From: an uncultured bacterium
Lineage (GTDB): Bacteria; Omnitrophota; Omnitrophia; Omnitrophales; Aquincolibacteriaceae
Reading direction: 5' to 3'
Length of the DNA: 64,000 nt
NCBI GenBank assembly: GCA_964385615.1
Contig: CAYLPP010000010.1
Coordinates: forward strand, 21,565-85,564
In this document: piece after piece, positions 1,200 through 36,730 of the stretch
How positions within the stretch are numbered: the first letter of the stretch is position 1
Layout of the letters: each line of letters begins with the position of its first letter
Notes under the pieces: generated by a model
The model's database searches: none
Told to the model about the DNA's origin: nothing
Seen by the model: only the letters and a program-made list of their open reading frames with translations
Program-made: the position numbers and the translations under genes

Positions 1200-1209
1200 T
1201 CGTAGATTG

Positions 1210-2588: not shown

Positions 2589-4184
2589 CTAATCCTGATG
2601 AACAACTTCGGCAATTGCGCCGGAATTCAATTTGACCTTAACCCAAGGATTATTTTTAACGCCGGAGCGGACTTTGCGGATCCAAAGCTCTTTAGAAGCT
2701 GAGGCGCCGTCGATTGACACCGAAGAACCTTCAAAAGTTTTCGAAGCAACGGTCTTCTTGCCTTCTCTTATGTCCAGCTGATACGAGGCTCCTTTGTCAA
2801 AACCGTACTTCGCTTCAAGATCGGTAAACGTCAGCTGTCCACCCTTGAAATCAAAATCATCCAGCGGAGCGGATTTTGAAAACCAGTACGCGGCCGCCAA
2901 ATCACGGCGCTTGATCAATTGATCCGCGATAAAAGTTTCGTCGGGTTCTTCCGTGTACTTCCCCGCTTTTACGATCGCGCGAATATCTTCATCTGAAAAC
3001 GACTTGATGATCTTAGCGGCCCAAAAAGCGTCCGCGCGGGTTAAATCCTTAAAAACGTACTGGGGAAGAAACGTTTTAAACTTCTTGGGATTGAACTCAT
3101 TGTTGTCAAAATAACCGACGGCTGTTGAGTGAACCGTTTCACCGGATTCTCTCCAACGGCGCTGCCAGGGCTTCTCCCAAAAACCAAGTGTCCAGAAAGC
3201 CTTAGTAGTTTCTCCCGCATCATAGAGATATTCATAACCGATCATGGGAGGCTTAGCGCCTTCCGTGTCAGAACCCAAAGCCCCGTAAAACCCGGTTAAA
3301 TAATGCTTCAGAAATGTCTGCCCGTTTTCATTAACAAGATAATCACGGGTGCTTTGATCGTGAAAATTAAAATCATTAAGCCACGAACCAAACACGCGCA
3401 ACGCGCGAAGCTCACGCTGTTCCTGGTGATTCCACTTGTCATTCGGGTCATTCTTACGGCGGCCCTGAAAAGAAAAGGTTCCCTTATCAATTCCCACGGG
3501 AGTTTTAACCGCGGCCGCGCGGAATTTTCCGTCGTCCGCCCAAGGAATCATCAGCGTCAACGTATCAAGTTTTTCCTGAGTCAATTTTCTTTTAAAACCT
3601 GAGGAGTCAACAAACCGGGCGCCTTCCTGCGGTATCAAATTTTCAGGACTTAAAGAAACAAGCGTGATCTGGGGAACGTTATAACCGATCGCGTGATAAA
3701 ACCGGCTGGCAATAATCATGGCCGCGGTCATCATCCCGATTGAATCCGGTGAATCAAAATAAAGCGTGTATTCCTCTCCCTTAGAATCTTTCACGGTAAA
3801 AACTGGACGGAGCCCCATCAGATAGCCGTCGGTAATCATCATTTTCCCGGAGAGTTCCGGACCTGAGCTTACATAATTTCCCGCGGCAAGTTCTTGAGCC
3901 GAAAGCGCTTTGCGGGCGTGTCTGTTGGTAAAAAAAGCGGAATCCGCGACTTCATCATAGAGATTCACATCCGCTGAGCGGAGTTTCTTACCAAAAATCT
4001 TCCGGCCCAAACGGTCAAGATGAAGATAAGAGGTGTTGTCGTAGTAGACGTTATTATCGAAGACATCCTTGTAAAGACTGTCCGGGTTCTTTTTGAACTC
4101 CGGATTATCGGCAGCCGCTTCAGCAGCAAAACTAGCGGAGCTTTGTAAAAGCAAAAAGCAAAGGAGAAGGCTTATTGTTTTCAT
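2589..4184 (-). CDS. Exported protein of unknown function (about 530 aa; signal peptide MKTISLLLCFLLLQSSASFA)
   Basis: Long ORF in which the internal Met at 4184 gives a typical Sec signal peptide. I do not recognise the family. Confidence 0.55.
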   Translation of the reverse strand: MKTISLLLCFLLLQSSASFAAEAAADNPEFKKNPDSLYKDVFDNNVYYDNTSYLHLDRLGRKIFGKKLRSADVNLYDEVADSAFFTNRHARKALSAQELAAGNYVSSGPELSGKMMITDGYLMGLRPVFTVKDSKGEEYTLYFDSPDSIGMMTAAMIIASRFYHAIGYNVPQITLVSLSPENLIPQEGARFVDSSGFKRKLTQEKLDTLTLMIPWADDGKFRAAAVKTPVGIDKGTFSFQGRRKNDPNDKWNHQEQRELRALRVFGSWLNDFNFHDQSTRDYLVNENGQTFLKHYLTGFYGALGSDTEGAKPPMIGYEYLYDAGETTKAFWTLGFWEKPWQRRWRESGETVHSTAVGYFDNNEFNPKKFKTFLPQYVFKDLTRADAFWAAKIIKSFSDEDIRAIVKAGKYTEEPDETFIADQLIKRRDLAAAYWFSKSAPLDDFDFKGGQLTFTDLEAKYGFDKGASYQLDIREGKKTVASKTFEGSSVSIDGASASKELWIRKVRSGVKNNPWVKVKLNSGAIAEVVHQD

Positions 4185-4233
4185 GCATCCCTTTACCGGC
4201 AAGCGCACAGCTTCTTTAGCTGCGGCTTTGCTG

Positions 4234-4262
4234 TACTTGCGCATCGGCGCATCGGCGCAGCT
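4234..4262. repeat. Second copy of the ACTTGCGCATCGGCGCA hairpin element, with an internal GCATCGGC duplication, immediately 3' of the OMP stop codon
   Basis: Read directly from the sequence. 17 of 18 positions match the element at 11594-11615. Confidence 0.55.
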
Positions 4263-5577
4263 AGAACGGCGAACGGTTTTTAACATAAAAGGAAGTCCCT
4301 TCATCTCCATGAGCCAATTCTACTGAAAGTAAAACATGGTCTAATAATGAAAACCGGAAACCGCCGCCGTAACTCGCGTTAAAATCTTGAAACTGCATAC
4401 GGCTGGGTTTTCTAAAAACCTGCCCAACGTCGGTAAAAAGAAAACTGTCCGCTTTGAAATCACGGTACTCGTAAATAGTGTAGCGGTATTCAAAATTAAG
4501 AACCAGCGCGTCACGGTCATAAAAGCGGTTGTCATCGTATCCGCGAAGCGTTTGGCTAAGTGACGGATGATTTCCATAACCGCCCAAGCGGGCCATATCA
4601 TAAAAAGGAACCTGCTTGCCGGACAACGCCATATTATCTTCGAAGTATAAATGAGAAACGAACACGCGCCGCTCAGAACCCAAAGGAAGATAGTGGCTCA
4701 ATTCCAAAACCGCTTTAAAATAACGGGCGTCGGAACTGCCCAGGCCTTCATTGTATTTATATCCCGCGCGCGCATACATACCGCGGCTTGAAGAGGTTTG
4801 ATGATTACGGGTGTCATAAACCAACTCAGGCCCCGTTCCAAGCAATTCATCGCCTTTTAAACCCGGAACCGTAAAGGCGGTATCGGGAAAAGTCACGTCG
4901 ATAATTCCGCGTCCACCATCTTCGCCGTTGGTGATATTCACATTCTTATAGAAAAATTTCCAGTCCGCGGAAAAAGAAGGGTTCTTGCTGTAACCAAGAC
5001 TGGTTTCAATAAGAGTCTGTTCCATTTTATAGGAGGTGCCTTCACCCTTACTGGTATCAGGTCCAATTCCATAAAAATGTTCTTCGGGCCGGCTGGAATA
5101 TTCCACCGTGGCGAAAGTGCGGAGAGGTGTGTCAAGAATACGCTCCATGCCGATACGGCTTCCAGCAAACATATTGCCTTCATAAGAATCGTACCAGCCT
5201 TTAAGCGTTAAATCCGGAAAACGAACTTTCTGGCGCGTCAGCCTTATAAAATCAACTTCGGCACCGTAACGGCGAAGACCAATATAAGGGGTGATTCCGT
5301 AATCTCCGATTTTTTCATAAATCCACTGTCCTTTGCTGAGCAAGCGTTCTTTTTCCGCGAAAACAAGCGTCTTATTAAGCGGCCAGCGGACAAGTTCAAA
5401 AGGATAGGTCAGAAAATCGGAAGAAACTTTGGAAAGAAGGGAGCGTTCCTGACGATCCGCGTAAACGGAAGCATAGCGGTCATAGCTGACATTTTCCGCG
5501 TAAGCGGCAGACGCAAAAAGCAGTCCGGCCAGAACGATTGTAAAAAGTTTGTATTTCTTATTAATCATGTTGCCCAT
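4261..5577 (-). CDS. Outer-membrane beta-barrel protein of unknown function
   Basis: N-terminal signal peptide (LFTIVLAGLLFASAAYA). The protein is rich in alternating aromatic/hydrophilic residues and has a C-terminal ...YVKNRSPF ending in Phe, the OMP C-terminal signature. Confidence 0.55.
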   Translation of the reverse strand: MGNMINKKYKLFTIVLAGLLFASAAYAENVSYDRYASVYADRQERSLLSKVSSDFLTYPFELVRWPLNKTLVFAEKERLLSKGQWIYEKIGDYGITPYIGLRRYGAEVDFIRLTRQKVRFPDLTLKGWYDSYEGNMFAGSRIGMERILDTPLRTFATVEYSSRPEEHFYGIGPDTSKGEGTSYKMEQTLIETSLGYSKNPSFSADWKFFYKNVNITNGEDGGRGIIDVTFPDTAFTVPGLKGDELLGTGPELVYDTRNHQTSSSRGMYARAGYKYNEGLGSSDARYFKAVLELSHYLPLGSERRVFVSHLYFEDNMALSGKQVPFYDMARLGGYGNHPSLSQTLRGYDDNRFYDRDALVLNFEYRYTIYEYRDFKADSFLFTDVGQVFRKPSRMQFQDFNASYGGGFRFSLLDHVLLSVELAHGDEGTSFYVKNRSPF

Positions 5578-17732: not shown

Positions 17733-18251
17733 TTAAGCGCGAAGGTAAGGCAAAAGCGCCCAGGCCGATAAAATCAGAGAAGCCCAAAAAGCCTGAAGGA
17801 GCTTCAGCGGTAAGCCGGCGGTTATTTTAGGCGGTCTAAAAAAAAGCGCCCGCTCATTGAAGCCCAGCATTATCATTCGAAAGCCGGAAAACAGCAGGGC
17901 GGATTGTAAGATCTCTTTCAAGAACTGAGAACCGGCACCAGGGCTCAGATAACGGAAACTTAATCCGCAAACCGCCAGAAAAAAAACGAACGGCCGGCGG
18001 GCGAGAGAACAAACGGCAAAAACCGCGGGAATCATCCAAAGCGCGAAATCTTCCCGGCTGAAAGAAATAAAATTCAGAAGGAGAACGGCCGTAAGAGCGA
18101 TTACGGCCACGCACGCAAAAATGCGGAAAGTATCTTCCAGAATTTGGCGCGGAGAAACGCGTTCTTCCGCTAGACAGAATAGAAAACCAAAAGCGATTGA
18201 GGAGAAAAGAATGGAGTTCACACTTCCGCCGCCGATTGAAATTTTTTCCAT
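17733..18251 (-). CDS. RnfA/NqrE-like small polytopic membrane subunit (divergent)
   Basis: About 170 aa with 5-6 TM segments. Its C-terminal ...LFSGFRMIMLGFNERAL resembles the RsxA ...YGFSAAVGFSLVM...IRERL region. The start is set at the internal MEKISIGG. Confidence 0.4.
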   Translation of the reverse strand: MEKISIGGGSVNSILFSSIAFGFLFCLAEERVSPRQILEDTFRIFACVAVIALTAVLLLNFISFSREDFALWMIPAVFAVCSLARRPFVFFLAVCGLSFRYLSPGAGSQFLKEILQSALLFSGFRMIMLGFNERALFFRPPKITAGLPLKLLQAFWASLILSAWALLPYLRA

Positions 18252-18760
18252 CCCGAACCGGTAAAAAGCGCTTTCTGCTTTCGGCTGGCCGGCCAGACCA
18301 TCGCGGGAAGAATCAGCAATGCTAAACTCCCGGGAACCCTCTGAAAAAGCGGCCACTCGGCCTGACGCCCTAAAACTTCCTGCGTAATGCCAAGATAAAT
18401 TACAAGGGCCAGAAAACAAACCGCTTTAATAAAAACTGACGTGGGATCGCGGTGCTTCTCCTGCCGGCCCGCGAGCGGAAAAAGCAGAAGACAAACGCTT
18501 AAGGCCGCCGCCCCGCGTGAGTATTGAAATCCGGGGAGAACGGAAACGGCGCAGCAAACGGTTAAAACCGTAGCCCACGAGATCAGGCGTTTTGGAAAAA
18601 GAGGGGTCAGAATCTCAAAAAGAAGCGCCGTCGCGACAAATACCGCGGCAACCGAAAAACCCGCCTCAAGGGAAGATCCGAACTGAAGCAGTCCGGGAAG
18701 AATGGGAAAAACGGGAGCCGCAGCTTCAGAGAAAGAAGGGAGAAGGTATTTTTTTTTCAC
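18218..18760 (-). CDS. RnfE/NqrD-like small polytopic membrane subunit (divergent)
   Basis: 180 aa polytopic membrane protein whose start overlaps the RnfG-like stop by 4 nt. The call rests mainly on context plus topology. Confidence 0.35.
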   Translation of the reverse strand: MKKKYLLPSFSEAAAPVFPILPGLLQFGSSLEAGFSVAAVFVATALLFEILTPLFPKRLISWATVLTVCCAVSVLPGFQYSRGAAALSVCLLLFPLAGRQEKHRDPTSVFIKAVCFLALVIYLGITQEVLGRQAEWPLFQRVPGSLALLILPAMVWPASRKQKALFTGSGWKKFQSAAEV

Positions 18761-19263
18761 GCGAAAGTTCCTTCGCTGGCTTTTTCAATAAAAAGCGCGC
18801 GTCGGCTGTCAAAGAATTCCTGGGCGCCGGAAACCAAGTCCGGAGCAAGTCTGTTTTCGGGGACAAGCGCTTTTCTGATAAAACTGGGCTTCAATCCCGT
18901 AACCCTGCCCTCGAGATCGATCCCAATCAAAACCGGATTGACGCCTTCACCGTCTGAGTTCTCCGAAATCCAAAAAGCAAAACCCGTGAGCTTATTAACC
19001 CTGACAGGTTCTGATACTTCATCCAGCCGCACATCCTGCTCATGCCGGGCCGGAAAAATCCGGCGGCCTTCGATTTCAAAAGATTCTTCTTCCGGATGAT
19101 TGCTGAAAGAAGGCAGAACCGTTTTTAAATCGAGCTCGGTCTTCGAAGTTTTTTCCGCCGCTGTGTCGACCTTCAATAAAAAGACGCCAGCGGCCAGCGC
19201 CGCCGCGTAAACAATCAAAAATAAATACTGCAGAATGACGATTCTTCTTTTCTTTTCAGACAT
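18757..19263 (-). CDS. RnfG/NqrC-like periplasmic FMN_bind-fold subunit lacking the flavinylation threonine
   Basis: N-terminal TM anchor and an FMN_bind-like core (VLIGIDLEGRVTGLKP). The D-x-x-[ST]-G-A-T site reads DLVSGAQ, so the flavin-accepting Thr is replaced by Gln. The start is set at MSEKKRR (19263). Confidence 0.55.
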   Translation of the reverse strand: MSEKKRRIVILQYLFLIVYAAALAAGVFLLKVDTAAEKTSKTELDLKTVLPSFSNHPEEESFEIEGRRIFPARHEQDVRLDEVSEPVRVNKLTGFAFWISENSDGEGVNPVLIGIDLEGRVTGLKPSFIRKALVPENRLAPDLVSGAQEFFDSRRALFIEKASEGTFA

Positions 19264-20095
19264 TTGGAAAAACTTTCGATTTTTCACGGGCCGGAAACGG
19301 CTGGGTGAGCGCGTCAAACCAAGGGGTTAAAACATTCACGCTCAGAATAGCCAACGCGCAAGCCAAAAAAAGCGGCAGTCCATTCCCATATAAAACTACC
19401 GTTAAAAACCCGGCTGTTAGAGAAAATACGCAATGCCCGTAAAGACTCAGCGGAGTCGTTTCGGCATCTGTAATAATAAAAAACCCCGTGATTATCCAAA
19501 CGCTTATATCGCGCGGAGAAATTGGGATTCCAAACCAAAAAATGCCGGTAAATACTGCCGCTAGATAAATAAAAGGAATCTGCGGGCGGAATACTTTGCG
19601 CGCGGCCAACCAAAAAACCCCAGGGATCAGCAGGGCCGGAACCATCCAGGCAATGATTGACGTTGGTAATTCTTGATTCGAAAAAACATTCTGCCCTTGC
19701 AGAAGAATCGCCAGAAAAAGAAAAGCCGCGGGAACGGGATGCGCAAAACAGGCTCCCTGACCGCCTAAAAAAGTTCTCGCGAACAAAAGAGAGAAAAAAA
19801 GCCCCGCGGCGGCGGCTGGAAGGGCGGTGCTTGCCGGAATAAGAGCTGTGTAAAGCAGCGCGTATAAAACCAGACTTCCTTTTTTAAATTCTTCCGATTT
19901 TTTCAGCACTAGTCCGGAAAAAAATTCATGCCCGGCACAAGCCAGCAAAGATACCGCCATGATAAACAACCTGGAAGGTTCCGCGAAAAATGAAAGGCCT
20001 ACAGAAGGCAAAAGAACCGCGGCAGCTGCCCAGTTCAGACTCTGAACCGTCTGAGAAGACCGGATATGGGGATGCGTGCCGGAACTGTAGCTCAT
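19256..20095 (-). CDS. RnfD/NqrB-like membrane subunit lacking the flavin-bearing loop
   Basis: The C-terminal FFIITDAETTPL matches the RnfD FFMLTDPVTSP motif, and GQGACFAHP aligns to the GQNPFNPAM region. The protein is 279 aa versus about 350 aa for RsxD. The roughly 60-aa loop carrying the S/TGAT FMN-attachment site is absent. Confidence 0.6.
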   Translation of the reverse strand: MSYSSGTHPHIRSSQTVQSLNWAAAAVLLPSVGLSFFAEPSRLFIMAVSLLACAGHEFFSGLVLKKSEEFKKGSLVLYALLYTALIPASTALPAAAAGLFFSLLFARTFLGGQGACFAHPVPAAFLFLAILLQGQNVFSNQELPTSIIAWMVPALLIPGVFWLAARKVFRPQIPFIYLAAVFTGIFWFGIPISPRDISVWIITGFFIITDAETTPLSLYGHCVFSLTAGFLTVVLYGNGLPLFLACALAILSVNVLTPWFDALTQPFPAREKSKVFPNV

Positions 20096-20104: not shown

Positions 20105-21397
20105 CTATTTTTTAGCAGGCTGCGCGGTTTTCTGAAGTTCTTCGTCAATCACTCTTTGAAAACTCGCGAAAGGCTGAGCCCCCTTCATAATCCGGCCGTT
20201 CACAAAAACCGCCGGCGTTCCTGTGACTCCGGATTCAATCCCTTTCTGAATATCTTTCTGCACAATATCCTTGGGCTCTTGAGAATCCAAACATTTCTTA
20301 AAATCTTTCATTTTTAAACCTGTTTGCTCAGCCAGCGAAATAAGCAAAGCGTCATCTTTGGTAACATTGAGATTTTGAAAGAGCTTCTGATGGTACGGCC
20401 AGAATTTCCCTTGTTGATTCGCGCATTCCGAAGCTTGATGGGTGCGGTCCGAACCCGCGTGCATCTGCAGCGGAAAATGCCGCCAGACTTTCCGGACTTT
20501 CCCCTGATATTGAGTCATCACTTGCTGAATCGTAGGTTCAAGGCGCTGGCAAAACGGGCAATGAAAATCGCTGAATTCCACAAGAAGAACCGGGGCTTTT
20601 TCAGGACCTTCGGAAGGCCGTCCCGCGAGGTCATTGAATTCGACAATTTTAGGCGGTTCGGGCGGAGCTACGGGAGCGGCCGCGGAAGGCGCTGCGGCCG
20701 GGGGCTGTTTTCCCGGATTTAGAATTGCTTCAATTTTATTTACAAAAGCCTGATAAGAAAGTGCTCCGGACGATTTTTGACCGTTGATGAAAAAAGTCGG
20801 AGTCCCGTCTACCTGAAGGTCTCTGGCTTCTTTTAAATCAGCGTCGATAGCCTTTTTAGGCCGGCCGCTGGCAAGACAGCTTTCAAACGCCGCGGAATTT
20901 AAGCCGATCTGAGCGGCGATTTGCCGAATAACCGCAGCATCCGGCCGGTCGGCGCGGGCGTATACCGCATCATGAAAAGGCCAGAACTTTCCCTGCTCGT
21001 GCGCGCAAACCCCGGCCTGATGAACCAGATAAGAACCCTGCCCGGGAGTTTCAGAAAGCGGAAGGTTTTTATAAATAATGTGAACTTGATTCGGATAATT
21101 ATTAAAAACCTGGAGCAGTGTAGGGGCCGCTTTTTTACAATATGGACAGAAGAAATCCGAGAAATCAACAATCGTCACGGGCGCGTTGGCTGGACCCCGG
21201 TCAGGCGAAGGTGTCTGGACCGGCTTTTTAACCTGAGCCGCAAGCTGAAGAGTCCCGGTAGCTGGAATCAATGGATTGGCCGTGGGGGCAGGCACGGGAG
21301 CTGAAGCTGTTTTATGATAAGTCACAAAAGCAACGACAGTCGCAAGGGTCAAAGCAGTACCGCAGACAAATCCGGAAAGAAAAGGATTGGGTTTCAT
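20105..21397 (-). CDS. Membrane-anchored tandem DsbA-like thiol:disulfide oxidoreductase (two thioredoxin-fold domains)
   Basis: N-terminal TM anchor followed by two DsbA-family domains. Each has a CxxC active site (FSDFFCPYCKK and FSDFHCPFCQR) and the VCAHEQGKFWPFHD / CANQQGKFWPYHQ helical-insert signature. The two are separated by a Pro/Ala-rich linker. Confidence 0.75.
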   Translation of the reverse strand: MKPNPFLSGFVCGTALTLATVVAFVTYHKTASAPVPAPTANPLIPATGTLQLAAQVKKPVQTPSPDRGPANAPVTIVDFSDFFCPYCKKAAPTLLQVFNNYPNQVHIIYKNLPLSETPGQGSYLVHQAGVCAHEQGKFWPFHDAVYARADRPDAAVIRQIAAQIGLNSAAFESCLASGRPKKAIDADLKEARDLQVDGTPTFFINGQKSSGALSYQAFVNKIEAILNPGKQPPAAAPSAAAPVAPPEPPKIVEFNDLAGRPSEGPEKAPVLLVEFSDFHCPFCQRLEPTIQQVMTQYQGKVRKVWRHFPLQMHAGSDRTHQASECANQQGKFWPYHQKLFQNLNVTKDDALLISLAEQTGLKMKDFKKCLDSQEPKDIVQKDIQKGIESGVTGTPAVFVNGRIMKGAQPFASFQRVIDEELQKTAQPAKK

Positions 21398-21403: not shown

Positions 21404-22648
21404 CTATTTTGAGTTCGCGTAACGGATTAACTCGGTCATGGGCCGTTTGGACGGACACACGTAGGAGCAATTTCCGCATTCCACGCAATATTCTGAACCA
21501 TACTGCCGCGCCAGATTAACTCTGTCATTTTCGGCAGCAAGACTGATCATAGCCGGAGAAATTCCGGCCGGACAAACATCCAGACATCGCCCGCATCGAA
21601 TACAAGGTTCCGGGACTTCCGGCCTGGAGGCCTCAATCGGCAGAGCCAGAATCCCCTGGGTTCCAGGCACAACAACAGCATCCAGACTCTTTTGAGTCTT
21701 TCCGCTCATGGGACCGCCCATGATTAATTTTCGGGGTTCACGCATAAAACCTTTACAAGTTTTAACGACGCTTGAAAAATCCTGCCCCATCCGGGCCCAG
21801 ACATTTTTAGGCTCCATCACGCATTCCCCGGAAACAGTCACAACCCGCTCAAGAAAAGGCTTATGGAAAACCGCGGCTTCATACACCGCGAAAACCGCGG
21901 ATGGATCAAAAATACAGGCGGAATCCAACCCGGCCCGGCGAGAAAGAATATTTTCAGTGTCCGGGTAACCGCATGGAATCATCCGCACATCAGCGTGTTC
22001 CCATTTCAAAAAATAGATTTTACTTTTCAAAAGTTCCGCGGCTTCACGTTTATCCTCTTCGGTCACGATCAGAATATTTTCAGCACCGCACGCGCGCCTG
22101 AGAATTTCAGCGCCTTTCAAAATTTCCAGAGGATGCGACATGATCAAAGAGTAATTCGAGGAAAGATACGGCTCCGACTCACAAGCATTCACAACGAGCG
22201 TCTTAGCCGGGGCTTTGATTTTAAGATGCGCGGGCGTCATTTTCAGATCCGTATCCATCAGGCCCATTTCCCTGAAAAATTCCGGCCACCGGTCCGCCGG
22301 CATTTTTTCCCAGTCCTGCTCTTTTCCGAATCCCGGTATTTTTTCATCCTGGCCGTCAGAAAGAATTTCAATGGCCTGCGATCTTCCAAAAACCGGGTGC
22401 TCTATTTTAAGAATTTTCGAGACTTTTCCAGAGACGGACGCGTGAAGCGCGACATTGGAAATATGCCCCGGCTCGGCGATTTTTTGCCCCATAAGAACAG
22501 CATCCCCCGCTTTCACGCAGGGATGGGCTTCAAAACCGGTGGATTGCAGAAGGGGAACGCAAATTTTAGCGGGAGAGGAAGAAGGGCGGTGAATCGTCCA
22601 GATCAGGAAAAAAATTTCTTTTTTGTTTTCGAGCTTTAAAAGTTTCAT
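21404..22648 (-). CDS. RnfC-like subunit with two [4Fe-4S] ferredoxin motifs but no GGAGFP flavin/NADH motif
   Basis: Aligns to E. coli RsxC in the barrel-sandwich region (CVKAGDAVLMGQ), the ...LVVNACESEPY... region, VTVSGE...NVWARMG and IMGGPMSG. It has two CxxCxxCxxxCP motifs (CIRCGRCLDVCPA and CVECGNCSYVCPS). The position of GLGGAGFPTGVKL reads GLMDTDLKMTPAHLKIK. Confidence 0.6.
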   Translation of the reverse strand: MKLLKLENKKEIFFLIWTIHRPSSSPAKICVPLLQSTGFEAHPCVKAGDAVLMGQKIAEPGHISNVALHASVSGKVSKILKIEHPVFGRSQAIEILSDGQDEKIPGFGKEQDWEKMPADRWPEFFREMGLMDTDLKMTPAHLKIKAPAKTLVVNACESEPYLSSNYSLIMSHPLEILKGAEILRRACGAENILIVTEEDKREAAELLKSKIYFLKWEHADVRMIPCGYPDTENILSRRAGLDSACIFDPSAVFAVYEAAVFHKPFLERVVTVSGECVMEPKNVWARMGQDFSSVVKTCKGFMREPRKLIMGGPMSGKTQKSLDAVVVPGTQGILALPIEASRPEVPEPCIRCGRCLDVCPAGISPAMISLAAENDRVNLARQYGSEYCVECGNCSYVCPSKRPMTELIRYANSK

Positions 22649-28215: not shown

Positions 28216-29423
28216 ACCTTTCGAAGAAGAATCGCGGCTGCATGACCGCCGAATCCCAACGAGTAGGATAACGCTGTTTGAATTTTCGCGGGCCGGGCTT
28301 TTAGCGGTGTGTAATCCAGGTCACATTCCGGATCAGGTTTTTCCAGATTGGCCGTAGGCGGAACAAAACCGTATTCCATCGCTAAAAAAGCCGCGATCAC
28401 TTCAACGGCACCCGAAGCCCCGAGCATATGGCCGGTAATCGATTTAGTGGAAGTCATGGGAATTTTAAAAACTCCGCTGCCGAAGAATTTTTTAAGCTGG
28501 CAGGTTTCGTATACATCCCCAAGCTTGGTCGCGGTACCATGAAGATTAATATGCTGAATTTCAGACCGGCTGACCCCGGTTAATTCAAGCGCTTGTTCTA
28601 ACGTCCGTTGTAAGGTATCCCCGTCAGGATCAAATTGGACAGGATCATACGCGTCCATACCATAAGCTCCTCCGAGAATTTCTCCGTAGATTTTAGCGCC
28701 TCGAGCTTTAGCGCTTTCCAAAGTTTCCAAAAAAATCACCCCGCCCCCCTCACCGACCCCGAATCCATCCCGGCGCAAATCAAAAGGACGCATGGGACCG
28801 CGCGTAAGGGCTTTCATATTATGGTAAGCAGCCATCATGAGCGGTGTTACTGAAGCGTCGCTGGAACCCGCAAGGCAGTAATCCGTGTAGCCATCTGCGA
28901 CCATACGGGCACCCTCAAGAATCGAAGCCGTTCCCGTGGCGCAAGCCAGAACATAGCATTTAGCGGGACCTTGAAGTTTCCATTTCCGCGCGATCCATTG
29001 AGCGCCAAAATTCGGAACAGAATTACAGTAAATGCGCGCGCCCAGAATCGCACTTGGATTTTTTTTAAACCGCTCTGAGAAACGGTCAAGCGTGTGAACA
29101 CCGCCCTTGCTTGAACTAACCGCCATTCCAACACGATAAGGGTCTACTTGAGACGGATCAAACTTCGCGTCCCGCAAAGCTTCATCCGCGGCCGCAACCG
29201 CGTATTGAATGAATGGATCCAAAAGATGGGTGCCGTGCACATGGGGAACAAAATTTTTAACTTCGTAGGCGTATTTAGCGGGAAAATCTGGAATATCAAA
29301 AGAACGGATGGGACCTCCGCCATGATTACCCGCGCGAAGATTGCTCAGGAATTCAGGAAGACTGCTGCCCGCCGGACTGACCACGCCCATTCCGGTGGCA
29401 ACCACACGGCGCTTAAAACTCAT
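28212..29423 (-). CDS. Beta-ketoacyl-ACP synthase I/II-like (FabF/FabB family)
   Basis: 403 aa with a KAS I/II-type thiolase fold: active-site Cys region (ACATGT), HGTATKLGD and [14 protein letters not shown]. Overlaps bioF by 4 nt. Confidence 0.75.
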
Positions 29424-31237
29424 TTCCCCCCGTCGGCCTGGAGAAAAATATTCTGAGAGTTTAAAAACGAAAGGAGTTTTTTGGCGTTTTTTGAAGCGGA
29501 ATCTTTTTCACTTAAATCCAAATCAACAATACTGCTGCGGAATTGATTGGGACCCACGTTTACGATAAAAATACCGGAACGGTCCGTGACTTCCTGAAGA
29601 AGATGAAGTTCCTCATCATTCAAATTACTGGCTGTTGCCAGCACAATCAGGCCGGCATCCATTAAAATGTGCCCGACTTCGCCCAAACGGCGGACGTGTT
29701 CACGGCGTTTGGATTTATGCCCTTCAATATCCGCGTCTAACCCGCGAAGAAGATTTCCAATACCCAGAAAATAGGTTTTAGCTCCATTTTCAAAAAGAGT
29801 TTTTTCTACTTCCTTAGCGATCGTCTTTTTATCGACTCCCACTTTACCGGTCAAAAGAACCAGCTTGGGCTGGTGACCATACTTAGCCTCCCGCACCTTG
29901 GGTTCGACAACGCTGAAATCCCATTTCATTTCGCGTTCGTGCACCTGCTCGCGAACATCCGCCTGGTCATCGCGCACCAAAGCGGAAATAATTCCTCCGC
30001 CGGCAATATCGTATTGGTCTACGATCACAAACCGGCCCGTAGCTTCAATCGCATCCGCCGTATCAAAAGCAAGCGGGCGGGCGCATTCAAGCACGCACTG
30101 GGCAACATCATGACGCTCAATGATTTTCTTCTCAGCCTTCTTCAGGTCAGAAGCATCAATGATCTTTTTGATGGTTTTTAAATAAACAGGAACGGCAGCG
30201 CTTCCAATCTTGAGTTTGTATTCCTTGTCCTGAACCATTGGACTCTTGCCCATCCAGAAGATCTCAACCTGAATCAGCGGACCAACCAACGGCTGGGTTT
30301 CCTCCAGCTTGCACATAATATCGCCACGCTGAATATAAATCTGTTCTTTCAGGGTGAATCCAGCGCAATACCCGGCAACCATTTTTTTAGGTGACGGAGC
30401 ATTGAAAATTTCGATACTTTTAATTTCAGTCCGCTTGTTGGATGGCAGGAAGACGACCTTATCACCGACAGCAATGGTTCCCGCTTCAATCTTACCTGCC
30501 ACGATACGGCGGTCATCCCCCTCTTCCGTAAACTTGTAAACACCCTGCACCGGAAGACGAAAAGGTTTTTGCGCCAAGTCCGGAGCTTTTTCAAACAAGT
30601 CCAGAACCTCGAGCACGGATGGGCCTTTAAACCAGGAAAGATTTTTAGAGCTTTCGATCAGATTTTCACCGTGCATCGCGGCGAGCGGAATAAAAAACTT
30701 AGGCTCGACGCCGATCTGCTTCAGAAACTTGCGGTATTCAATCTGAATATCGTTAAAAGCTTTTTCGCTGTAATTAACCAAATCCATTTTGTTAACACAA
30801 ACCGCGATCTGGCGGATGCCAAGCATGGAAAGCAGGTAGCCGTGACGTTTAGAATTTTCCTGCACGCCTTCTTTAGCGTCAATAATCAAAAGAGCGGCTT
30901 CAGCTCGCGCGGCACCGCTAACCATGTTTTTCAGAAATTCAATGTGTCCGGGAGCATCGATAATAATGTATTCGCGTTTCTTGCTTTTAAAAAAGCAGCG
31001 GGCTGAATCAATCGTGATTCCCTGAGCTTTTTCATCTTTAAGAGCATCGAGAAGGAAAGCGTATTCGAAGGGTTTGGAATTGCGTTTGCACTCAGCGCGA
31101 ACCTGATCCAGCTTACCCTGAGGAAGCGAACCTGTATCCGCGAGCAAACGGCCAATGACCGTGCTTTTGCCATGGTCCACATGACCCACGATCACAATAT
31201 TCATTTTTAGGTCATTTTTTTCAGCCGTCTTAGACAT
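29420..31237 (-). CDS. cysN: Sulfate adenylyltransferase subunit 1 (CysN GTPase) fused to a C-terminal APS-kinase-like domain with degenerate catalytic motifs
   Basis: N-terminal GHVDHGKST / DAPGH / NKMD GTPase motifs. The C-terminal roughly 175 aa align to CysC ([22 protein letters not shown] versus [22 protein letters not shown]). The P-loop reads GKVGVDKKT instead of GLSGSGKST, and the LDGD motif is LGIG. Confidence 0.8.
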
Positions 31238-32112
31238 TACATGTATCCTTCTTTACGAAGAGTCTCAAGACCGCCGTCTTCAGCATCCTGCGCGCGGCCG
31301 GCACGCTCAGCAATGTTCGCAAATTTACCGGTCTTAAGTTCTTGAATAATCTCTTTAATATTTTTTGCCGTGGATTCCACTGAGGAAGTGCACGGGTAAC
31401 AGCCCAGGGAACGGTAACGTCTACCGGTACCTTGATCGAAATAAAGAGGAACTACCGGAATGTTTTCCGCATCGATATATTCCCAAATATCGAGCTCCGT
31501 CCAATCAAGCAAAGGATGAACCCGGATATGCGTTCCTGGCGCGAAATCCGTTTTGAACTGGTTCCAGAGTTCAGGCGGCTGATCGCCGATATTCCAGTCA
31601 TTGCGTTTATCGCGAGGAGAAAAATAGCGTTCTTTTGACCGGCTGCCTTCTTCATCGGAGCGCACGCCGACGATCACGCCGGTATAAGGTTCTTTATTTT
31701 CATCAACAACGTATTTTTTAAGCTCATGATCCATACGGTAACGCGTCCACTCGCCAGAAAGGGTTTTACGAAGAGCTTCCGTCTTTAAAGTTTTGCAGCA
31801 GCTGAGGCGATCGAGATTACCATCCGGATAGGTACGCTTTTCTCTAAGCGCATCCACGTTTTGTCCGTAAACCATGTTCAGCTTCCATTCCAGAGCGAGC
31901 CGGTCACGGTACTGAATCATTTCCGGGATCTTGTAGGCTGTATCAATATGAACAAGGGGAAAGGGCACGTGGCCGAAAAACGCCTTGCGGGCCAGCCAGA
32001 GTAGAACAGTGCTGTCTTTGCCGATCGACCAGAGCATCGCCAGGTTTTTAAAGTTGGCGTAGGCCTCGCGCAAAATATAAACGGATTGAGCTTCAATCTT
32101 TTCGAGATGTGT
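31237..32112 (-). CDS. cysD: Sulfate adenylyltransferase subunit 2
   Basis: [46 protein letters not shown] aligns to the E. coli CysD N-terminus. The ORF track extends it to a TTG at 32157. The stop overlaps the cysN start. Confidence 0.85.
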
Positions 32113-32204
32113 CATAAATGAAGAGTCCGTATTATAGCACAACTCCTGAATTTGCAAAGAGTTGTAATCATGAATCCCTATTGATGCGGTAGGGATTTAT
32201 CCGG

Positions 32205-32921
32205 CTAGATTTTTCGGGATTCGAAGTGAAAAACCTGTCCCGTGACCCCTTTCATGGCGTCTGAAGACAGATAAACCAGAAAATCCGCGACTTCTTCGGG
32301 GTCGGAAATCCGGCCAAGAGGGCTGGCTTCGGTCTGGTTGAGCAAGACCTGCTCAGGAAGATTTTCAGTCATAGAGGATTTCATGAACCCCGGATTGACC
32401 GCATTGACTAGAATGCTTTTTTTACCAAGTTCCTGGGCTAGAGATTTCGTCAAACCAATCAGTCCGGCCTTGGCGGCAGAATAATTCGAAATTCCGACAC
32501 CGCCTTGAATCGCGGCACGGCTGGTAATCATTAAAATTTTGGCCGGAGGCTCTGCCCGAAAAAGAGACAGCAAAAGTTTTTTCGTCAGGTAATACGGAGC
32601 TTTTAAATCCACCGCCATGACGTGATCCCATTCCTCTTCCGTCATATTCTGCAGAGTGTGGTCACGCACCGCGGCCGCATTATGAATCAAAACATCCAGC
32701 GTTTTTATTTTTTCTTTGAAGGTCTTAACAAAAGCGTCAATAGCGGCGGTGTCGGCAAGATTAAGGGGAAAGCCTTCCGCTCCGCTTTTTTGAAGCTCTT
32801 GTGCCTCAGTAAGATTTTGATGGTAGGTAAAAAAAACGCGGGCACCTGCCGCTGCCGCTTTTCGGACAAAGCAGCTTCCCAATCGGCTTGTGCCTCCCGT
32901 GATCAGGATATTTTTATTCAA
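32205..32921 (-). CDS. Short-chain dehydrogenase/reductase (FabG-like)
   Basis: TGGTSRLG Rossmann motif, NAA, and the YSAAKAG catalytic Tyr-x3-Lys; 238 aa. The start overlaps the bioB stop (ATGA). Confidence 0.75.
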   Translation of the reverse strand: MNKNILITGGTSRLGSCFVRKAAAAGARVFFTYHQNLTEAQELQKSGAEGFPLNLADTAAIDAFVKTFKEKIKTLDVLIHNAAAVRDHTLQNMTEEEWDHVMAVDLKAPYYLTKKLLLSLFRAEPPAKILMITSRAAIQGGVGISNYSAAKAGLIGLTKSLAQELGKKSILVNAVNPGFMKSSMTENLPEQVLLNQTEASPLGRISDPEEVADFLVYLSSDAMKGVTGQVFHFESRKI

Positions 32922-33943
32922 ACTTGCGCGGGATCTTTCTTGGAATCAGCCGCCGGGCGTTTTGCAGGTTCAAAGCCGGCGCGCTTCAGCATCTCAAAAT
33001 CGTCTTTCATAGGATTCGCAGAAGTCGTGAGATACCCGCCGACAATCAAACCATTCGCACCGCCCTTAAGCGACATTTCCTGGTATTGATTCCCCAAATT
33101 CACTTCCCGTCCTCCAGCCAGTTTAATGTTGGCTTTCGGATGGATAAACCGGTAAACGGCGATGGTTTTAACCATTTCCAGCGGATCGGGCGCCGGTACA
33201 TTTTCTAATGGCGTTCCAGGACGAGGGTTCAAGATATTCATCGGAAGACAATGAGGCGCGAAAGGCTTAAGTTCAAAAGCCAGTTTCACGCGGTCTTCAC
33301 GGGTTTCTCCCATGCCAAGAATTCCTCCGGAGCAAATTTCCATATTCCCGTCCTGAAGCATCTTCAAGGTTTCAAGTCTCTTATCATAAGTATGCGTGGT
33401 CACAATCTTAGGATAAAACTCGCGGGAACTCTGAAGGTTATCATTAAAACGGCGGACCCCCGTTTCCTTCAAGCGCTTCACCCGTTCTGGAGTCAAAAAT
33501 CCCAAAGACCCGTCTAAATTCATGGAGGTTTCCGCTTTTAGGCGCGTATAAATTTCGATGACCTGATCGAATTCTTTCTCAGACAATTCCCCGCCGCTGG
33601 TCACAACGCAGAAATTATGAGCACCTTTCTTTTCGAAATCCTTAGCCGCCGCGACCACTTCTTCGGTCGGCATCATCTGATAGCGGTTAACCCGGGTATC
33701 AAAACGCACGGACTGCGAACAAAAACCGCAATCTTCTCCGCAAAGATAACTCTTGGCGTTAATCAAAGAACAAAGTCCCGGCTCATTGGAGTTAAAATTA
33801 AAATTAATTTCCCGCGCCGCTTCCAAAAGCGGTTCCATGTCCGGCCCCGCCGGATCAATTTCGACGAGCTTCATCGCTTCTTCAAAAGAAACTTCTCCGC
33901 CGCCCAAAACTTTGTTTTTGAGTTCTTCGATCAAATTTTTCAT
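32918..33943 (-). CDS. bioB: Biotin synthase (radical SAM)
   Basis: CGEDCGFCSQS radical-SAM cluster motif. NDNLQSSREFYPKIVTTHTYDKRLETLKMLQDGNMEICSGGILGMGET aligns to E. coli BioB [47 protein letters not shown]. Confidence 0.8.
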   Translation of the reverse strand: MKNLIEELKNKVLGGGEVSFEEAMKLVEIDPAGPDMEPLLEAAREINFNFNSNEPGLCSLINAKSYLCGEDCGFCSQSVRFDTRVNRYQMMPTEEVVAAAKDFEKKGAHNFCVVTSGGELSEKEFDQVIEIYTRLKAETSMNLDGSLGFLTPERVKRLKETGVRRFNDNLQSSREFYPKIVTTHTYDKRLETLKMLQDGNMEICSGGILGMGETREDRVKLAFELKPFAPHCLPMNILNPRPGTPLENVPAPDPLEMVKTIAVYRFIHPKANIKLAGGREVNLGNQYQEMSLKGGANGLIVGGYLTTSANPMKDDFEMLKRAGFEPAKRPAADSKKDPAQV

Positions 33944-33950
33944 TTAATTT

Positions 33951-34193
33951 TCAGCCTTCAACAATATCCCCGATGACCGGATCCACACCCACGCCTTTTT
34001 CGCGCAAGCCTTTCTCGGCTTTGTCGATATCCGATTGGGCGCCTTCCAGTTCGATCGTGGCTTCACCCGCTTCATGCGAAATCTTGGCGCGGCGAATATT
34101 TAAGAGCAGGTTGTTGTCACGGGCCACCAGGTACATGATAGGCTCCTTGATCAATTTCTGAGGAAAAACGAGGTGGAACGCTTTTTTGGGCAT
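33951..34193 (-). CDS. Stand-alone NIL-domain (MetN C-terminal-like, ferredoxin-fold) protein
   Basis: About 80 aa resembling the C-terminal NIL domain of methionine-ABC ATPases (NNLLLNIRRAKI...GEATIELEG). The start is set at the internal Met to avoid overlap with the carrier gene. Confidence 0.45.
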   Translation of the reverse strand: MPKKAFHLVFPQKLIKEPIMYLVARDNNLLLNIRRAKISHEAGEATIELEGAQSDIDKAEKGLREKGVGVDPVIGDIVEG

Positions 34194-34194
34194 A

Positions 34195-34470
34195 TTACCC
34201 TCCGGCAATCGCGGGAACGATAGAAATCTGATCCCCGTCTTTCAGAGACGTTTCTTCCTGCTGAAGAAAGCGGATGTCTTCTTCGTTCAGGTAAACATTC
34301 ACGAACCGGCGAACTTTTCCGGTATCGTCGCAAAGGCGGTCCTTGATGCCTGGAAAATTTTTCTCGAGCTGATTGATCATGTCCTTGACGTTGCCGGCCT
34401 GGATATCAACTTCACCCTGATTATTGGTCAGTTTCTGAAGCGGTGTTGGAATTCTTACTTTAATCGCCAT
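34195..34470 (-). CDS. MoaD/ThiS/CysO-type sulfur-carrier protein ending in Gly-Gly
   Basis: 91 aa with a beta-grasp-sized ORF whose C-terminus is ...[10 protein letters not shown] followed by stop. It lies between the NIL protein and the PLP enzymes. Confidence 0.75.
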
Positions 34471-34500
34471 GAGATTTTCTCCCTTACTAAGATTTTTAAA

Positions 34501-35751: not shown

Positions 35752-35765
35752 TTATCTCACCTTTT

Positions 35766-36722
35766 TTAGACTTTGAAGGCCTCATCCATGCTGAGATACC
35801 GTTCGCCGGTATCACAAATCACGGTGACCACATTTTTACCAGGACCAAGCTCACGGGCCAGTTGAAGCGCCGCCCATACGTTGGCACCCGCTGAAATACC
35901 GCACAGAAGCCCTTCTTTTGAAGCAAGCTCCATGGAAGTTTTCCAAGCATCCTGATCTTCAACCTGAATAACTTGATCGATCACATTACGGTTTAGAACT
36001 TCCGGAACAAAACCCGCGCCGATGCCCTGAATTTTATGTTTCCCCGGAGCACCTCCGGAAAGAACAGGCGAGGTTTTCGGCTCCACAGCAACGACTTTAA
36101 TAGCCGCGTTTTTCTTTTTGAATACTTCCCCGCAGCCTGTCACGGTTCCGCCGGTACCCACGCCAGCGACAAAACCATCCACTTTCCCATCCAGGGCTTC
36201 CCAGATTTCTTCAGCCGTGGTTTCACGGTGAATTTTAGGGTTGGCCGGATTGGCAAACTGCTGCGGAATAAAACTGTTTTTATTCTGTTCGGCAATTTCT
36301 TTAGCCTTGGCAATCGCGCCTTTCATGCCTTCCGCGCCCGGCGTCAGCACAAGCTCGGCTCCGTACCGCTTCAAAAGCTGACGGCGCTCCACGCTCATTG
36401 TTTCCGGCATAGTCAAAATCAAACGGTACCCTTTCACGGCGCAAACCAGCGCGAGACCAATTCCGGTATTGCCTGATGTAGGCTCTACAATGACCGTGTC
36501 TTTATTAATCAGCTTTTTTTCTTCCGCGTCCCGAATCATGCTTAAACAAATCCGGTCCTTAACGCTTCCCCCCGGATTAAAAGATTCCAGTTTTCCATAA
36601 ACCGCGGCCATTTGCGGATTCGCTAATTTATTGATGCGAACTAACGGAGTGTTACAGATCAACTCAAGCATATTAGAGGCTAATGCGGGCTTGCTGTGCT
36701 TCACGGTCGTCGTCATAATCAT
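35766..36722 (-). CDS. cysK: Cysteine synthase (O-acetylserine/O-phosphoserine sulfhydrylase; CysK/CysM family)
   Basis: SVKDR PLP lysine, [10 protein letters not shown] and GIGAGFVP motifs; 318 aa. Confidence 0.8.
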
Positions 36723-36730
36723 CTCCCTCG

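What the first reader, a model, noticed from the sequence alone, without database searches (positions are those of the whole stretch)
18757..20095. RnfD-like and RnfG-like subunits both lack the covalent-FMN attachment sites
The RnfG-like FMN_bind domain reads DLVSGAQ where the family has D-x-x-[ST]-G-A-T, so the flavinylated Thr is replaced by Gln. The RnfD-like protein is about 70 aa shorter than RsxD. The roughly 60-aa periplasmic loop that carries the S/TGAT site is replaced by about 11 residues (NVFSNQELPTS). Flanking conserved segments are retained: GQ...P and FFIITDAETTPL matching FFMLTDPVTSP. Loss of flavin sites from two subunits in parallel argues for a functional change in the electron path rather than annotation noise.
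Basis: seen in the sequence. Interest (0 to 1): 0.65.

Follow-up and report, generated by a model that had tools for sequence, protein, structure and literature searches.

The report
Flavin-less Rnf-derived operon with tandem DsbA
A conserved six-gene operon in a rare group of uncultured bacteria descends from the Rnf respiratory ion pump, but it lacks every canonical flavin site, the membrane iron-sulfur ligands and RnfB, and it has gained a membrane-anchored double DsbA, so it cannot work as a normal Rnf complex and has probably been put to another use.

Summary
The RnfD-like protein (19256-20095, minus strand) lacks the periplasmic loop that carries the flavinylated Thr. The next ORF (18757-19263) is an RnfG homologue only in its N-terminal three quarters. 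It has no FMN_bind Pfam match and no acceptor Thr.

Further losses appear in the same operon:
- The RnfC-like subunit has lost its glycine-rich FMN/NADH loop but keeps both [4Fe-4S] motifs.
- The RnfE-like protein has lost the first Cys ligand of the membrane [2Fe-2S] cluster. No Cys is invariant in it or in the sixth protein.
- No rnfB or apbE lies in the 64 kb window.
- A membrane-anchored tandem DsbA with two intact CxxC motifs sits between rnfC and rnfD.

Six other metagenomic assemblies carry the same operon in the same synteny. Its ORFs stay intact but evolve much faster than the flanking housekeeping genes. The loop-less RnfD type belongs to a wider, apparently undescribed family of at least 60 clusters at 50% identity.

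The operon is a repurposed Rnf derivative, not noise. Its function is unknown; I favour a link to envelope thiol-disulfide redox.

The parts
21404..22648 (-). RnfC-like subunit (414 aa)
   Evidence: TIGR01945 rnfC scores 282.7 bits against a cut-off of 246, and Pfam finds RnfC_N, Complex1_51K and Fer4 domains. It matches RnfC chain 7zc6_C at E 1e-60.
22217..22264 (-). Degenerate FMN/NADH glycine-rich loop of the RnfC-like protein (GLMDTDLKMTPAHLKI, where canonical RnfC has GIVGMGGATFPTHVKL)
   Evidence: Alignments to RsxC, 7zc6_C and 9eri_C. The loop is replaced in all 7 clade members and deleted in L009. Coordinates.
21452..21604 (-). Two CxxCxxCxxxCP [4Fe-4S] motifs of the RnfC-like protein (aa 349-360 and 388-399)
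   Evidence: Retained in the window and in relatives; L007 has one Cys-to-Ser change.
20105..21397 (-). Membrane-anchored tandem DsbA/Thioredoxin_4 protein (430 aa); CPYC at nt 21137-21148 and CPFC at nt 20549-20560
   Evidence: Pfam Thioredoxin_4 and DSBA each match twice, and NF041057 scores 225 bits against a cut-off of 190. It has one N-terminal hydrophobic helix. Both CxxC motifs are kept in all 7 relatives.
19256..20095 (-). RnfD-like subunit without the flavinylation loop (279 aa)
   Evidence: Pfam PF03116 scores 101 bits. Split match to RnfD chains 7zc6_D and 9eri_D. Loop measurement. The equivalent of the riboflavin/Na+ Asp (D210) is invariant.
19658..19690 (-). Stub NVFSNQELPTS that replaces the loop carrying the flavinylated Thr
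18757..19263 (-). Truncated RnfG-like protein (168 aa): TM anchor, N-terminal part of the RnfG fold and a C-terminal helix, with no acceptor Thr
   Evidence: hhalign against an RnfG profile gives probability 93.5% and E 2e-7 over residues 11-127. In a profile search of the PDB the only hits are RnfG chains, at E 6e-6. There is no Pfam hit. The 168-aa product equals the called NCBI gene.
18820..18840 (-).
   Evidence: Present in the window but not conserved in any relative.
18218..18760 (-). Y: RnfE-like six-segment membrane protein (180 aa) lacking the conserved Cys ligands
   Evidence: In a profile search of the PDB the only hit with E<=10 among 177,635 sequences is RnfE chain 7zc6_E, at E 0.013. 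hhalign against RnfA/E gives E 0.011 and a collinear alignment. It links to the L009 protein, which matches Pfam Rnf-Nqr at E 0.004. It occupies the rnfE position in the gene order.
17733..18221 (-). Z: six-segment membrane protein (162 aa) in the rnfA position, with no detectable homology
   Evidence: Conserved in 6 loci. No Pfam, PDB or hhalign match. Its start overlaps the Y stop by 4 nt.

Best explanation
Shown:
- The genes from 22648 to 17733 on the minus strand form one tightly packed, partly overlapping operon.
- Its order is rnfC-like, tandem dsbA, rnfD-like, rnfG-like, rnfE-like (Y) and Z. This is the canonical rnfCDGEA order with a dsbA insertion and no rnfB.
- It descends from Rnf but lacks most of the canonical cofactor sites: the NuoF-type FMN/NADH loop of RnfC, the Thr-bearing loop of RnfD, the flavin-holding half and acceptor Thr of RnfG, and the first Cys ligand of the RnfA/E [2Fe-2S] centre. 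The second ligand position in Y is not conserved, and no Cys is invariant in Y or Z.
- What remains is the RnfC 2x[4Fe-4S] ferredoxin domain, the RnfD core including the Asp that coordinates riboflavin in solved Rnf, and two intact CxxC thioredoxin folds facing the periplasm.

Inferred:
- The complex cannot run the U-shaped ferredoxin-to-NAD+ electron loop and is not a canonical Rnf pump.
- My preferred mechanism is that the Rnf-derived scaffold joins a cytoplasmic one-electron carrier to the membrane through the RnfC Fe-S clusters and a non-covalent riboflavin in RnfD.
- It would then serve the co-encoded DsbA pair, acting as an unconventional redox partner for envelope disulfide formation or reduction.
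- This functional step is a guess drawn from gene linkage alone.
For: - **Operon and homology:**
- **Loss of the RnfC loop:**
- **Loss of the RnfD loop:**
- **RnfG truncation and non-conserved motif:**
- **Cys ligands:**, compared with the invariant Cys25/Cys113 of RnfA and Cys26/Cys109 of RnfE in PMC9588780 and in bioRxiv 10.1101/2024.06.21.599731.
- **No rnfB, apbE, rnfA/E or rnfG:** E. coli queries and Pfam scans find none in the window.
- **Same operon elsewhere:** six further assemblies carry it with intact ORFs.
- **Retained sites:** the Fe-S motifs, both DsbA CxxC motifs and the RnfD Asp are kept throughout.
- **Faster evolution than neighbours:** the D, G, Y and Z proteins are 29-53% identical between genomes, while PilT is 89-95% and PolA 74-81%. 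Canonical RnfD and RnfA keep 37-60% identity across phyla.
Against: - No path for electrons across the membrane can be named. The periplasmic flavins are gone, and no Cys or His that could replace them is conserved in D, G, Y or Z.
- The riboflavin site is only half conserved. The second ligand, Asn (N123 in A. woodii), is His in 5 of 7 members, Val in one and Asn in one.
- The link to DsbA rests on gene order alone. A related loop-less cluster (L009) has neither dsbA nor rnfG.
- The assignment of Z is by position only.
- Only 64 kb of the genome was seen, so apbE, rnfB or a separate FMN_bind protein could lie elsewhere.
Confidence: 0.5

Rival explanations
1. The complex no longer transfers electrons at all. 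The RnfD/E/A-like membrane core is related to solute and cation transporters, and here it would work as a channel, transporter or structural scaffold. The RnfC Fe-S domain would be kept for stability or as a redox sensor, and dsbA would be a neighbour with no functional tie.
For: - Every membrane and periplasmic cofactor site is missing.
- The membrane subunits evolve very fast.
- RnfD/NqrB is structurally related to ammonium and urea transporters (review PMC12174285).
- NqrA shows that an RnfC homologue can persist without cofactors.
- The loop-less cluster L009 lacks dsbA.
Against: - Both [4Fe-4S] motifs are kept in nearly all members, and the riboflavin-coordinating Asp is invariant. This fits retained redox chemistry.
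- dsbA lies inside the operon, between rnfC and rnfD, in all 7 genomes.
Confidence: 0.25
2. It is still a working Rnf-type oxidoreductase. Flavins would bind non-covalently or sit on separately encoded FMN_bind proteins, and rnfB and apbE would lie elsewhere in the genome.
For: - Only 64 kb of the genome is visible.
- RnfC, RnfD, RnfG and RnfE homology is real.
- There is precedent for an RnfD-like subunit without the Thr that is proposed to use a non-covalent flavin site (PMC10979944).
Against: - The whole loop is deleted in RnfD, not just the Thr.
- Roughly 26-36 residues of the flavin-holding part of RnfG, including the ETPGLG segment, are missing.
- The RnfC GGAxFP loop is replaced, which removes the NAD+ end of the path.
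- The first [2Fe-2S] Cys ligand is absent in Y in all members, and one genome (L014) has no Cys at all at the candidate positions.
Confidence: 0.1
3. The short-loop, flavin-less form is ancestral rather than derived. It would be a relic of the transporter-like precursor of RnfD, from before flavins were recruited.
For: - Short-loop RnfD-likes form a large, mostly coherent group.
- RnfD is related to solute transporters.
- The tree is unrooted in effect.
Against: - The partner RnfC still has the full NuoF-like domain architecture with a degenerate loop, and RnfG is a truncated remnant. These look like decay of a complete Rnf.
- The canonical rnfCDGEA gene order is retained.
Confidence: 0.1
4. 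The genes are decaying pseudogenes, or the pattern is an assembly or annotation artefact.
For: High divergence of the D, G, Y and Z proteins.
Against: - Seven independent assemblies keep all six ORFs intact, with conserved lengths, overlapping start and stop codons, and conserved motifs such as PHIR, GG, TD..T.P and FFRPP..QAFW.
- No stop codons or frameshifts appear despite divergence down to about 30% identity.
Confidence: 0.03

Closest known systems
Rnf complex (RnfCDGEAB; ferredoxin:NAD+ oxidoreductase; PDB 7ZC6, 9ERI, 8AHX)
   Same: Gene order C-D-G-E-(A). RnfC passes TIGR01945. The RnfD core motifs are kept, including the riboflavin/Na+ Asp. The RnfG N-terminal fold and an RnfE-like membrane protein are present. 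The RnfC 2x[4Fe-4S] domain is present.
   Different: - No RnfB.
- No RnfC GGAxFP FMN/NADH loop.
- No RnfD Thr loop.
- No RnfG acceptor Thr or ETPGLG region.
- The RnfE-like protein lacks the first Cys ligand, and no Cys is invariant in the two small membrane proteins.
- A tandem DsbA is inserted.
- The subunits evolve several-fold faster than canonical ones.
Na+-NQR (NqrABCDEF)
   Same: It is a precedent for an RnfC homologue (NqrA) that has lost its cofactors, and for electrons leaving riboflavin in NqrB directly to a membrane acceptor (PMC12174285).
   Different: NQR keeps both covalent FMNs and the [2Fe-2S] centre, and it has NqrF. Here the RnfC homologue keeps its Fe-S clusters, while the flavin sites are gone and the [2Fe-2S] ligands are not conserved.
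NQR/RNF-like two-subunit systems (Meheust et al. 2021, PMC8238504; Huang et al. 2024, PMC10979944)
   Same: An NqrB/RnfD-like subunit in which the flavinylated Thr is not conserved.
   Different: In those systems the RnfD-like domain is fused to a PF00175 NAD-binding domain and paired with a flavinylated RnfG/NqrC-like protein near apbE. Here there is no fusion, the G-like protein has no flavin site, RnfC-like and RnfE-like subunits are present, and a DsbA is inserted.
DsbA-DsbB/VKOR and DsbD/CcdA envelope thiol-redox pathways
   Same: A periplasm-facing CxxC thioredoxin-fold protein encoded with a membrane module that could link it to another redox pool. This is a functional analogy only and is inferred.
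   Different: There is no homology to DsbB, VKOR or DsbD, and no conserved membrane Cys pairs. A quinone or flavin link is untested.

Membership tests
Rnf complex | RnfC homologue with NuoF-like domain and C-terminal 2x[4Fe-4S] ferredoxin domain | tested here: met
   TIGR01945 scores 282.7 bits against a cut-off of 246. 7zc6_C matches at E 1e-60. Both CxxCxxCxxxCP motifs are present.
Rnf complex | RnfC glycine-rich FMN/NADH-binding loop (G-x-G-G-A-x-F-P) | tested here: not met
   It reads GLMDTDLKMTPAHLKI. The loop is replaced in all 7 clade members and deleted in L009.
Rnf complex | RnfD with a periplasmic loop carrying the flavinylated Thr (Thr153 in C. tetanomorphum; [ST]-x-A-T-P-L) | tested here: not met
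   The loop is 45 residues against 70-118 in canonical RnfD, and no such motif exists anywhere in the protein. The residue number comes from PMC9588780.
Rnf complex | RnfD riboflavin ligands (A. woodii N123 and D249) | tested here: inconclusive
   The Asp is invariant (window D210). The Asn is His in 5 of 7 members, Val in one and Asn in one.
Rnf complex | RnfG: TM anchor plus FMN_bind domain with an acceptor Thr in D-x-x-[ST]-G-A-[ST] | tested here: not met
   No PF04205 hit. Homology is limited to residues about 11-127. The acceptor position reads Q/K/R/R/V/K/S in the seven members.
Rnf complex | RnfA/RnfE pair with four invariant Cys ligating a membrane [2Fe-2S] cluster | tested here: not met
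   Y matches RnfE only weakly (E 0.013) and Z not at all. GLCP is replaced by APVFP in all members. The second Cys position is Cys in 4 of 6 Y proteins, and L014 has no Cys at any candidate position in Y or Z.
Rnf complex | RnfB polyferredoxin subunit | tested here: not met
   It is absent from the operon in all 7 loci. tblastn with RsxB hits only the Fe-S motifs of RnfC. The rest of the genome was not seen.
Rnf complex | ApbE flavin transferase in the genome | not testable with these tools
   None in the 64 kb window (tblastn with E. coli ApbE; Pfam scans of ORFs). The complete genome is not available here.
NQR/RNF-like (Meheust 2021) | RnfD-like domain fused to a PF00175 NAD-binding domain, with a flavinylated FMN_bind partner | tested here: not met
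   The D-like protein is 279 aa with PF03116 only. The G-like protein has no FMN_bind match or motif.
DsbA-family thiol:disulfide oxidoreductase (tandem) | Thioredoxin fold with a CxxC active site and cis-Pro loop, located outside the cytoplasm | tested here: met
   Two Thioredoxin_4/DSBA domains. CPYC and CPFC plus GTP motifs are conserved in 7 of 7 members, and there is an N-terminal TM helix. Activity was not tested.

The most novel reading that the evidence does not exclude
The operon encodes a previously unrecognised class of Rnf-derived, flavin-free membrane complex. The RnfC Fe-S clusters and a non-covalent riboflavin in a loop-less RnfD would connect a cytoplasmic electron carrier to a membrane-anchored tandem DsbA. 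That would be a route for envelope disulfide formation or reduction independent of DsbB/VKOR and DsbD. The wider loop-less RnfD family (at least 60 clusters at 50% identity) would then be a new functional branch of the Rnf/Nqr superfamily.
Probability: 0.2. Interest if true: 0.85.

Novelty: new variant of a known kind. Interest (0 to 1): 0.62.

Why it matters
Rnf and Nqr are defined by an unusual cofactor chain: a membrane [2Fe-2S] cluster, two covalent FMNs and a riboflavin. That chain couples electron flow to ion pumping.

A conserved complex that keeps the protein scaffold but drops most of that chain shows that the scaffold has a second use. It gives a natural experiment on which parts of Rnf are structural and which are catalytic.

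It also warns that genes annotated as "RnfC" or "RnfD" in metagenomes, used to infer energy conservation, may not encode an Rnf pump. This may apply to the whole loop-less RnfD family; only one other locus of it (L009) has been checked for its RnfC loop. If the DsbA link is functional, it would reveal a new way of powering envelope disulfide chemistry.

Tried and rejected
- **Single-sequence AlphaFold2 of Y and Z.** It gave pLDDT 51 and 58. Foldseek searches of the PDB with those models gave no hit below E 2. These results are uninformative.
- **Profile search with 53 short RnfD-likes.** It returned mainly canonical RnfD.
- **Genome and metagenome scans.** Genome scans found only the L001 contig again. 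Two JGI metagenome scans found nothing.
- **Taxonomy.** It could not be established. The relatives are labelled "uncultured bacterium" and every window protein looked up is a nameless singleton cluster.
- **Z.** It has no detectable similarity to RnfA/E, Y, Pfam or the PDB. Calling it RnfA-like rests on gene position only.
- **Literature.** Searches for partial or degenerate Rnf clusters, or for an Rnf-DsbA link, found nothing relevant.
- **Rejected: simple T-to-Q substitution.** The motif column is not conserved and the domain is truncated.
- **Rejected: pseudogenes or artefact.** Seven assemblies carry the ORFs intact.
Full report
**The locus.** The minus strand between 22648 and 17733 carries six tightly packed genes.
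- rnfC-like, 21404-22648.
- A 430-aa protein with two DsbA/Thioredoxin_4 domains, 20105-21397.
- rnfD-like, 19256-20095.
- A 168-aa single-TM protein, here called G, 18757-19263.
- A 180-aa membrane protein, Y, 18218-18760.
- A 162-aa membrane protein, Z, 17733-18221.

The D/G, G/Y and Y/Z junctions overlap by 4-8 nt, and the other gaps are 6-9 nt. mnmA lies upstream and pilT and polA downstream. The order C-D-G-Y-Z is the canonical rnfCDGEA order with a dsbA inserted and rnfB absent.

**Checking the observation.** The D-like protein passes Pfam PF03116 at 101 bits, but it scores only 58-64 bits against NCBIfam rnfD models whose cut-offs are 207-400.

phmmer aligns it to solved RnfD chains in two blocks. 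Residues 3-129 match 7zc6_D residues 7-134, and residues 154-266 match 190-303. So 24 residues stand where C. tetanomorphum RnfD has 55. That stretch contains Thr153, which carries the covalent FMN (PMC9588780).

I measured the distance between two conserved anchors in 151 family members. The window has 45 residues, RsxD has 113, and canonical members have 70-118. A D-x-x-[ST]-x-A-[ST]-P motif occurs only in long-loop members. Regular-expression scans find no flavinylation-like motif anywhere in the D-like or G-like proteins of the window or its six relatives.

**Is G really RnfG-like?** Pfam and NCBIfam find nothing at E<=1. A profile of seven orthologues aligns to an RnfG profile with hhalign probability 93.5% and E 2e-7, covering G residues 11-127 and RsxG residues 10-122. 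The same profile searched against all PDB sequences hits only RnfG chains: 8rb9_G and 8ahx_G at E 6e-6, and 7zc6_G at E 0.024.

So G is a true RnfG relative. The ETPGLG region is therefore gone.

The conserved C-terminal helix (xFFxxxRxxFxxKAxE) plausibly corresponds to the helix that follows the acceptor Thr in RnfG. At that position the seven genomes read Q, K, R, R, V, K and S. The preceding residues are unrelated to S/T-G-A.

- *RnfC-like.* This is a bona fide RnfC (TIGR01945 above cut-off; E 1e-60 to 7zc6_C). The glycine-rich loop GIVGMGGATFPTHVKL of solved RnfC reads GLMDTDLKMTPAHLKI here. An 11-residue segment further on is also deleted. Both changes are shared by all seven clade members, and the loop is deleted outright in the related locus L009. 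RnfC binds FMN and NADH in a NuoF-like site. That this loop is the FMN-binding element is inferred from the NuoF/Nqo1 homology and was not tested here. Both CxxCxxCxxxCP cluster motifs remain; L007 has one Cys-to-Ser change.
- *Y.* This is a weak but specific RnfE relative. The only PDB sequence matching its profile at E<=10 is RnfE chain 7zc6_E, at E 0.013. hhalign gives a collinear full-length alignment to RnfA/E at E 0.011. Y also links at E 4e-5 to the L009 protein, which matches Pfam Rnf-Nqr at E 0.004. In that alignment the first ligand motif GLCP is APVFP in Y. The second (TNC) is Cys in only 4 of 6 genomes.
- *Z.* No similarity to anything is detectable. Its two semi-conserved Cys are absent in L014. 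In solved Rnf the four Cys are invariant and their mutation is lethal.
- *Other components.* tblastn with E. coli RsxA, B, E, G and ApbE, together with Pfam scans of the large ORFs, finds no rnfB, apbE or second rnf/nqr gene in the 64 kb window.

**What is retained.** The RnfD core motifs (PHIR, GG, TD..T.P, N..P..D) are conserved. They include Asp210, the equivalent of D248 in C. tetanomorphum and D249 in A. woodii. That Asp coordinates riboflavin and Na+, and mutating it abolishes activity.

The second riboflavin ligand is Asn in 63 of 69 long-loop sequences. It is His in 5 of the 7 core members and in 33 of 62 other short-loop sequences.

The tandem DsbA keeps CPYC/CPFC-type sites, the cis-Pro GTP motifs and an N-terminal membrane anchor in all seven genomes.

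**Conservation and evolutionary rate.** The same bioD-mnmA-rnfC-dsbA2-rnfD-G-Y-Z-pilT-polA arrangement occurs in these loci:
- L001 (GCA_964553835.1).
- L005.
- L006.
- L007 (partial).
- L012 and L013.
- L014 (GCA_964541285.1).

Their RnfD-likes form an exclusive clade in a neighbour-joining tree.

Identity to the window:

| Protein | Identity to window (%) |
|---|---|
| PilT | 89-95 |
| MnmA | 77-86 |
| PolA | 74-81 |
| RnfC-like | 57-71 |
| DsbA2 | 44-60 |
| D | 29-43 |
| G | 33-44 |
| Y | 35-53 |
| Z | 29-52 |

For comparison, canonical RnfD, RnfE and RnfA keep 37-47%, 42-50% and 56-60% identity between E. coli, an Omnitrophica MAG and a Spirochaete MAG. The membrane subunits here therefore diverge as much within one narrow lineage as canonical ones do between phyla. 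Even so, all ORFs stay intact. This is relaxed but continuing selection, not pseudogenisation.

**A wider family.** A full HMMER scan of 1.84 billion representatives gave 2113 RnfD-family hits. Among the best 150, about 60-70 are short (260-295 aa), match in a single stretch and lack the loop.

I could read three contexts outside the core clade.
- L009 encodes RnfC (loop deleted), short RnfD and an RnfE/A-like protein, with no dsbA and no G.
- L008 has YdjC and an amidohydrolase upstream of a short RnfD.
- P0006 sits on a 1.8-kb ENA contig for which no DNA was returned, with only a divergently oriented PilZ gene beside it.

The loop-less state is thus older and broader than the dsbA-linked clade.

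**Comparison with the literature.** The nearest described case is the two-subunit NQR/RNF-like system, in which the RnfD-like Thr is not conserved. There the protein is fused to an NAD-binding domain and works with a flavinylated RnfG-like partner (PMC8238504 and PMC10979944). NqrA is a precedent for a cofactor-less RnfC homologue. Searches found no description of a flavin-less Rnf-type operon or of an Rnf-DsbA linkage. The library is incomplete, so this is not proof of novelty.

**Mechanism.** It is shown that the canonical U-shaped path cannot exist here. That path runs from RnfB through the [2Fe-2S] cluster, the FMN of RnfG, the FMN of RnfD, riboflavin and the RnfC clusters to the FMN of RnfC and NAD+. 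Its input end, its periplasmic flavins and its output end are missing here, and its [2Fe-2S] ligands are lost or not conserved.

It is inferred that the surviving elements could still form a short wire from a cytoplasmic one-electron carrier into the membrane. Those elements are the two RnfC clusters, which in Rnf lie next to the RnfD riboflavin, and a partly conserved riboflavin pocket. The invariant placement of an intact double DsbA inside the operon suggests that the complex serves envelope thiol-disulfide chemistry.

No conserved residues explain how electrons would cross the periplasmic half of the membrane. A non-redox role therefore remains a serious rival, whether as transporter, scaffold or Fe-S sensor. 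I put about 0.85 on [quoted passage not shown] and about 0.25-0.3 on the DsbA-coupled redox function.

**Verdict.** The finding is real, reproducible across assemblies and larger than reported. It is a new variant of a known kind in a rare, unnamed lineage, and its function is open.

Noticed in passing
window 52798-55187: This looks like the chromosomal replication origin region. dnaA (53802-55187), dnaN, gyrB and gyrA lie on the plus strand, with yidC, mnmG, parB and parA on the minus strand just upstream. Cumulative GC skew reaches its minimum at about 52-54 kb. The 1 kb gap at 52798-53801 is a candidate oriC.
   Followed up: partly
window 18001-20000: AT skew of +0.25 on the plus strand is by far the highest in the window. 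It coincides with the four hydrophobic membrane genes D, G, Y and Z on the minus strand, as expected from U-rich second codon positions.
   Followed up: no
window 2589-4310 and 4261-5577: A 573-aa ORF with no Pfam match at E<=10 lies immediately downstream of, and overlapping, an Omp85-family gene. It could be an uncharacterised outer-membrane partner.
   Followed up: no
window 546-1259: A multihaem cytochrome c of the c7/c3 type sits at the window edge. It shows that the organism has periplasmic haem-based electron transfer.
   Followed up: no
L001 3349-3352; L006 1135-1138; L007 1898-1914: In three relatives the mnmA stop overlaps the rnfC-like start. The tRNA thiouridylase gene may therefore be co-translated with the operon. 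In the window the gap is 18 nt.
   Followed up: no
L011 7110-7829: The RnfG of an otherwise canonical Spirochaete rnfCDGEA operon reads NAISAITGAMITS where S/T-G-A-T is expected. The usual acceptor position is Met. This may be another flavin-site variant or an alignment shift.
   Followed up: no
L009 151-2661; L008 2322-3149: Other loop-less RnfD genes occur in different contexts. One follows an RnfC with the G-loop deleted and precedes a 164-aa weak Rnf-Nqr match, with no dsbA or rnfG. Another lies downstream of YdjC and an amidohydrolase.
   Followed up: partly
proteins P0040, P0054, P0086, P0088, P0089, P0118, P0135, P0151: Among the RnfD-family representatives are RnfD proteins of 468-565 aa. 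P0040, the only one read in full, is an RnfD-RnfG fusion with a flavinylation motif in both halves (DGVSGAT in the RnfD part, ISGATITS in the RnfG part). Most of the others show the RnfD-loop motif; I used their C-terminal parts as RnfG references without inspecting them.
   Followed up: no
window 63232-63318 and 63422-63514: Two tRNA genes lie downstream of serS. They are the only Rfam matches in the window.
   Followed up: no
window 29420-38947: An assimilatory sulfate-reduction set (cysN/C-like fusion, cysD-like and cysH-like PAPS_reduct proteins, APS kinase) is interleaved with biotin genes (bioB, bioF-like) and two PALP enzymes.
   Followed up: no
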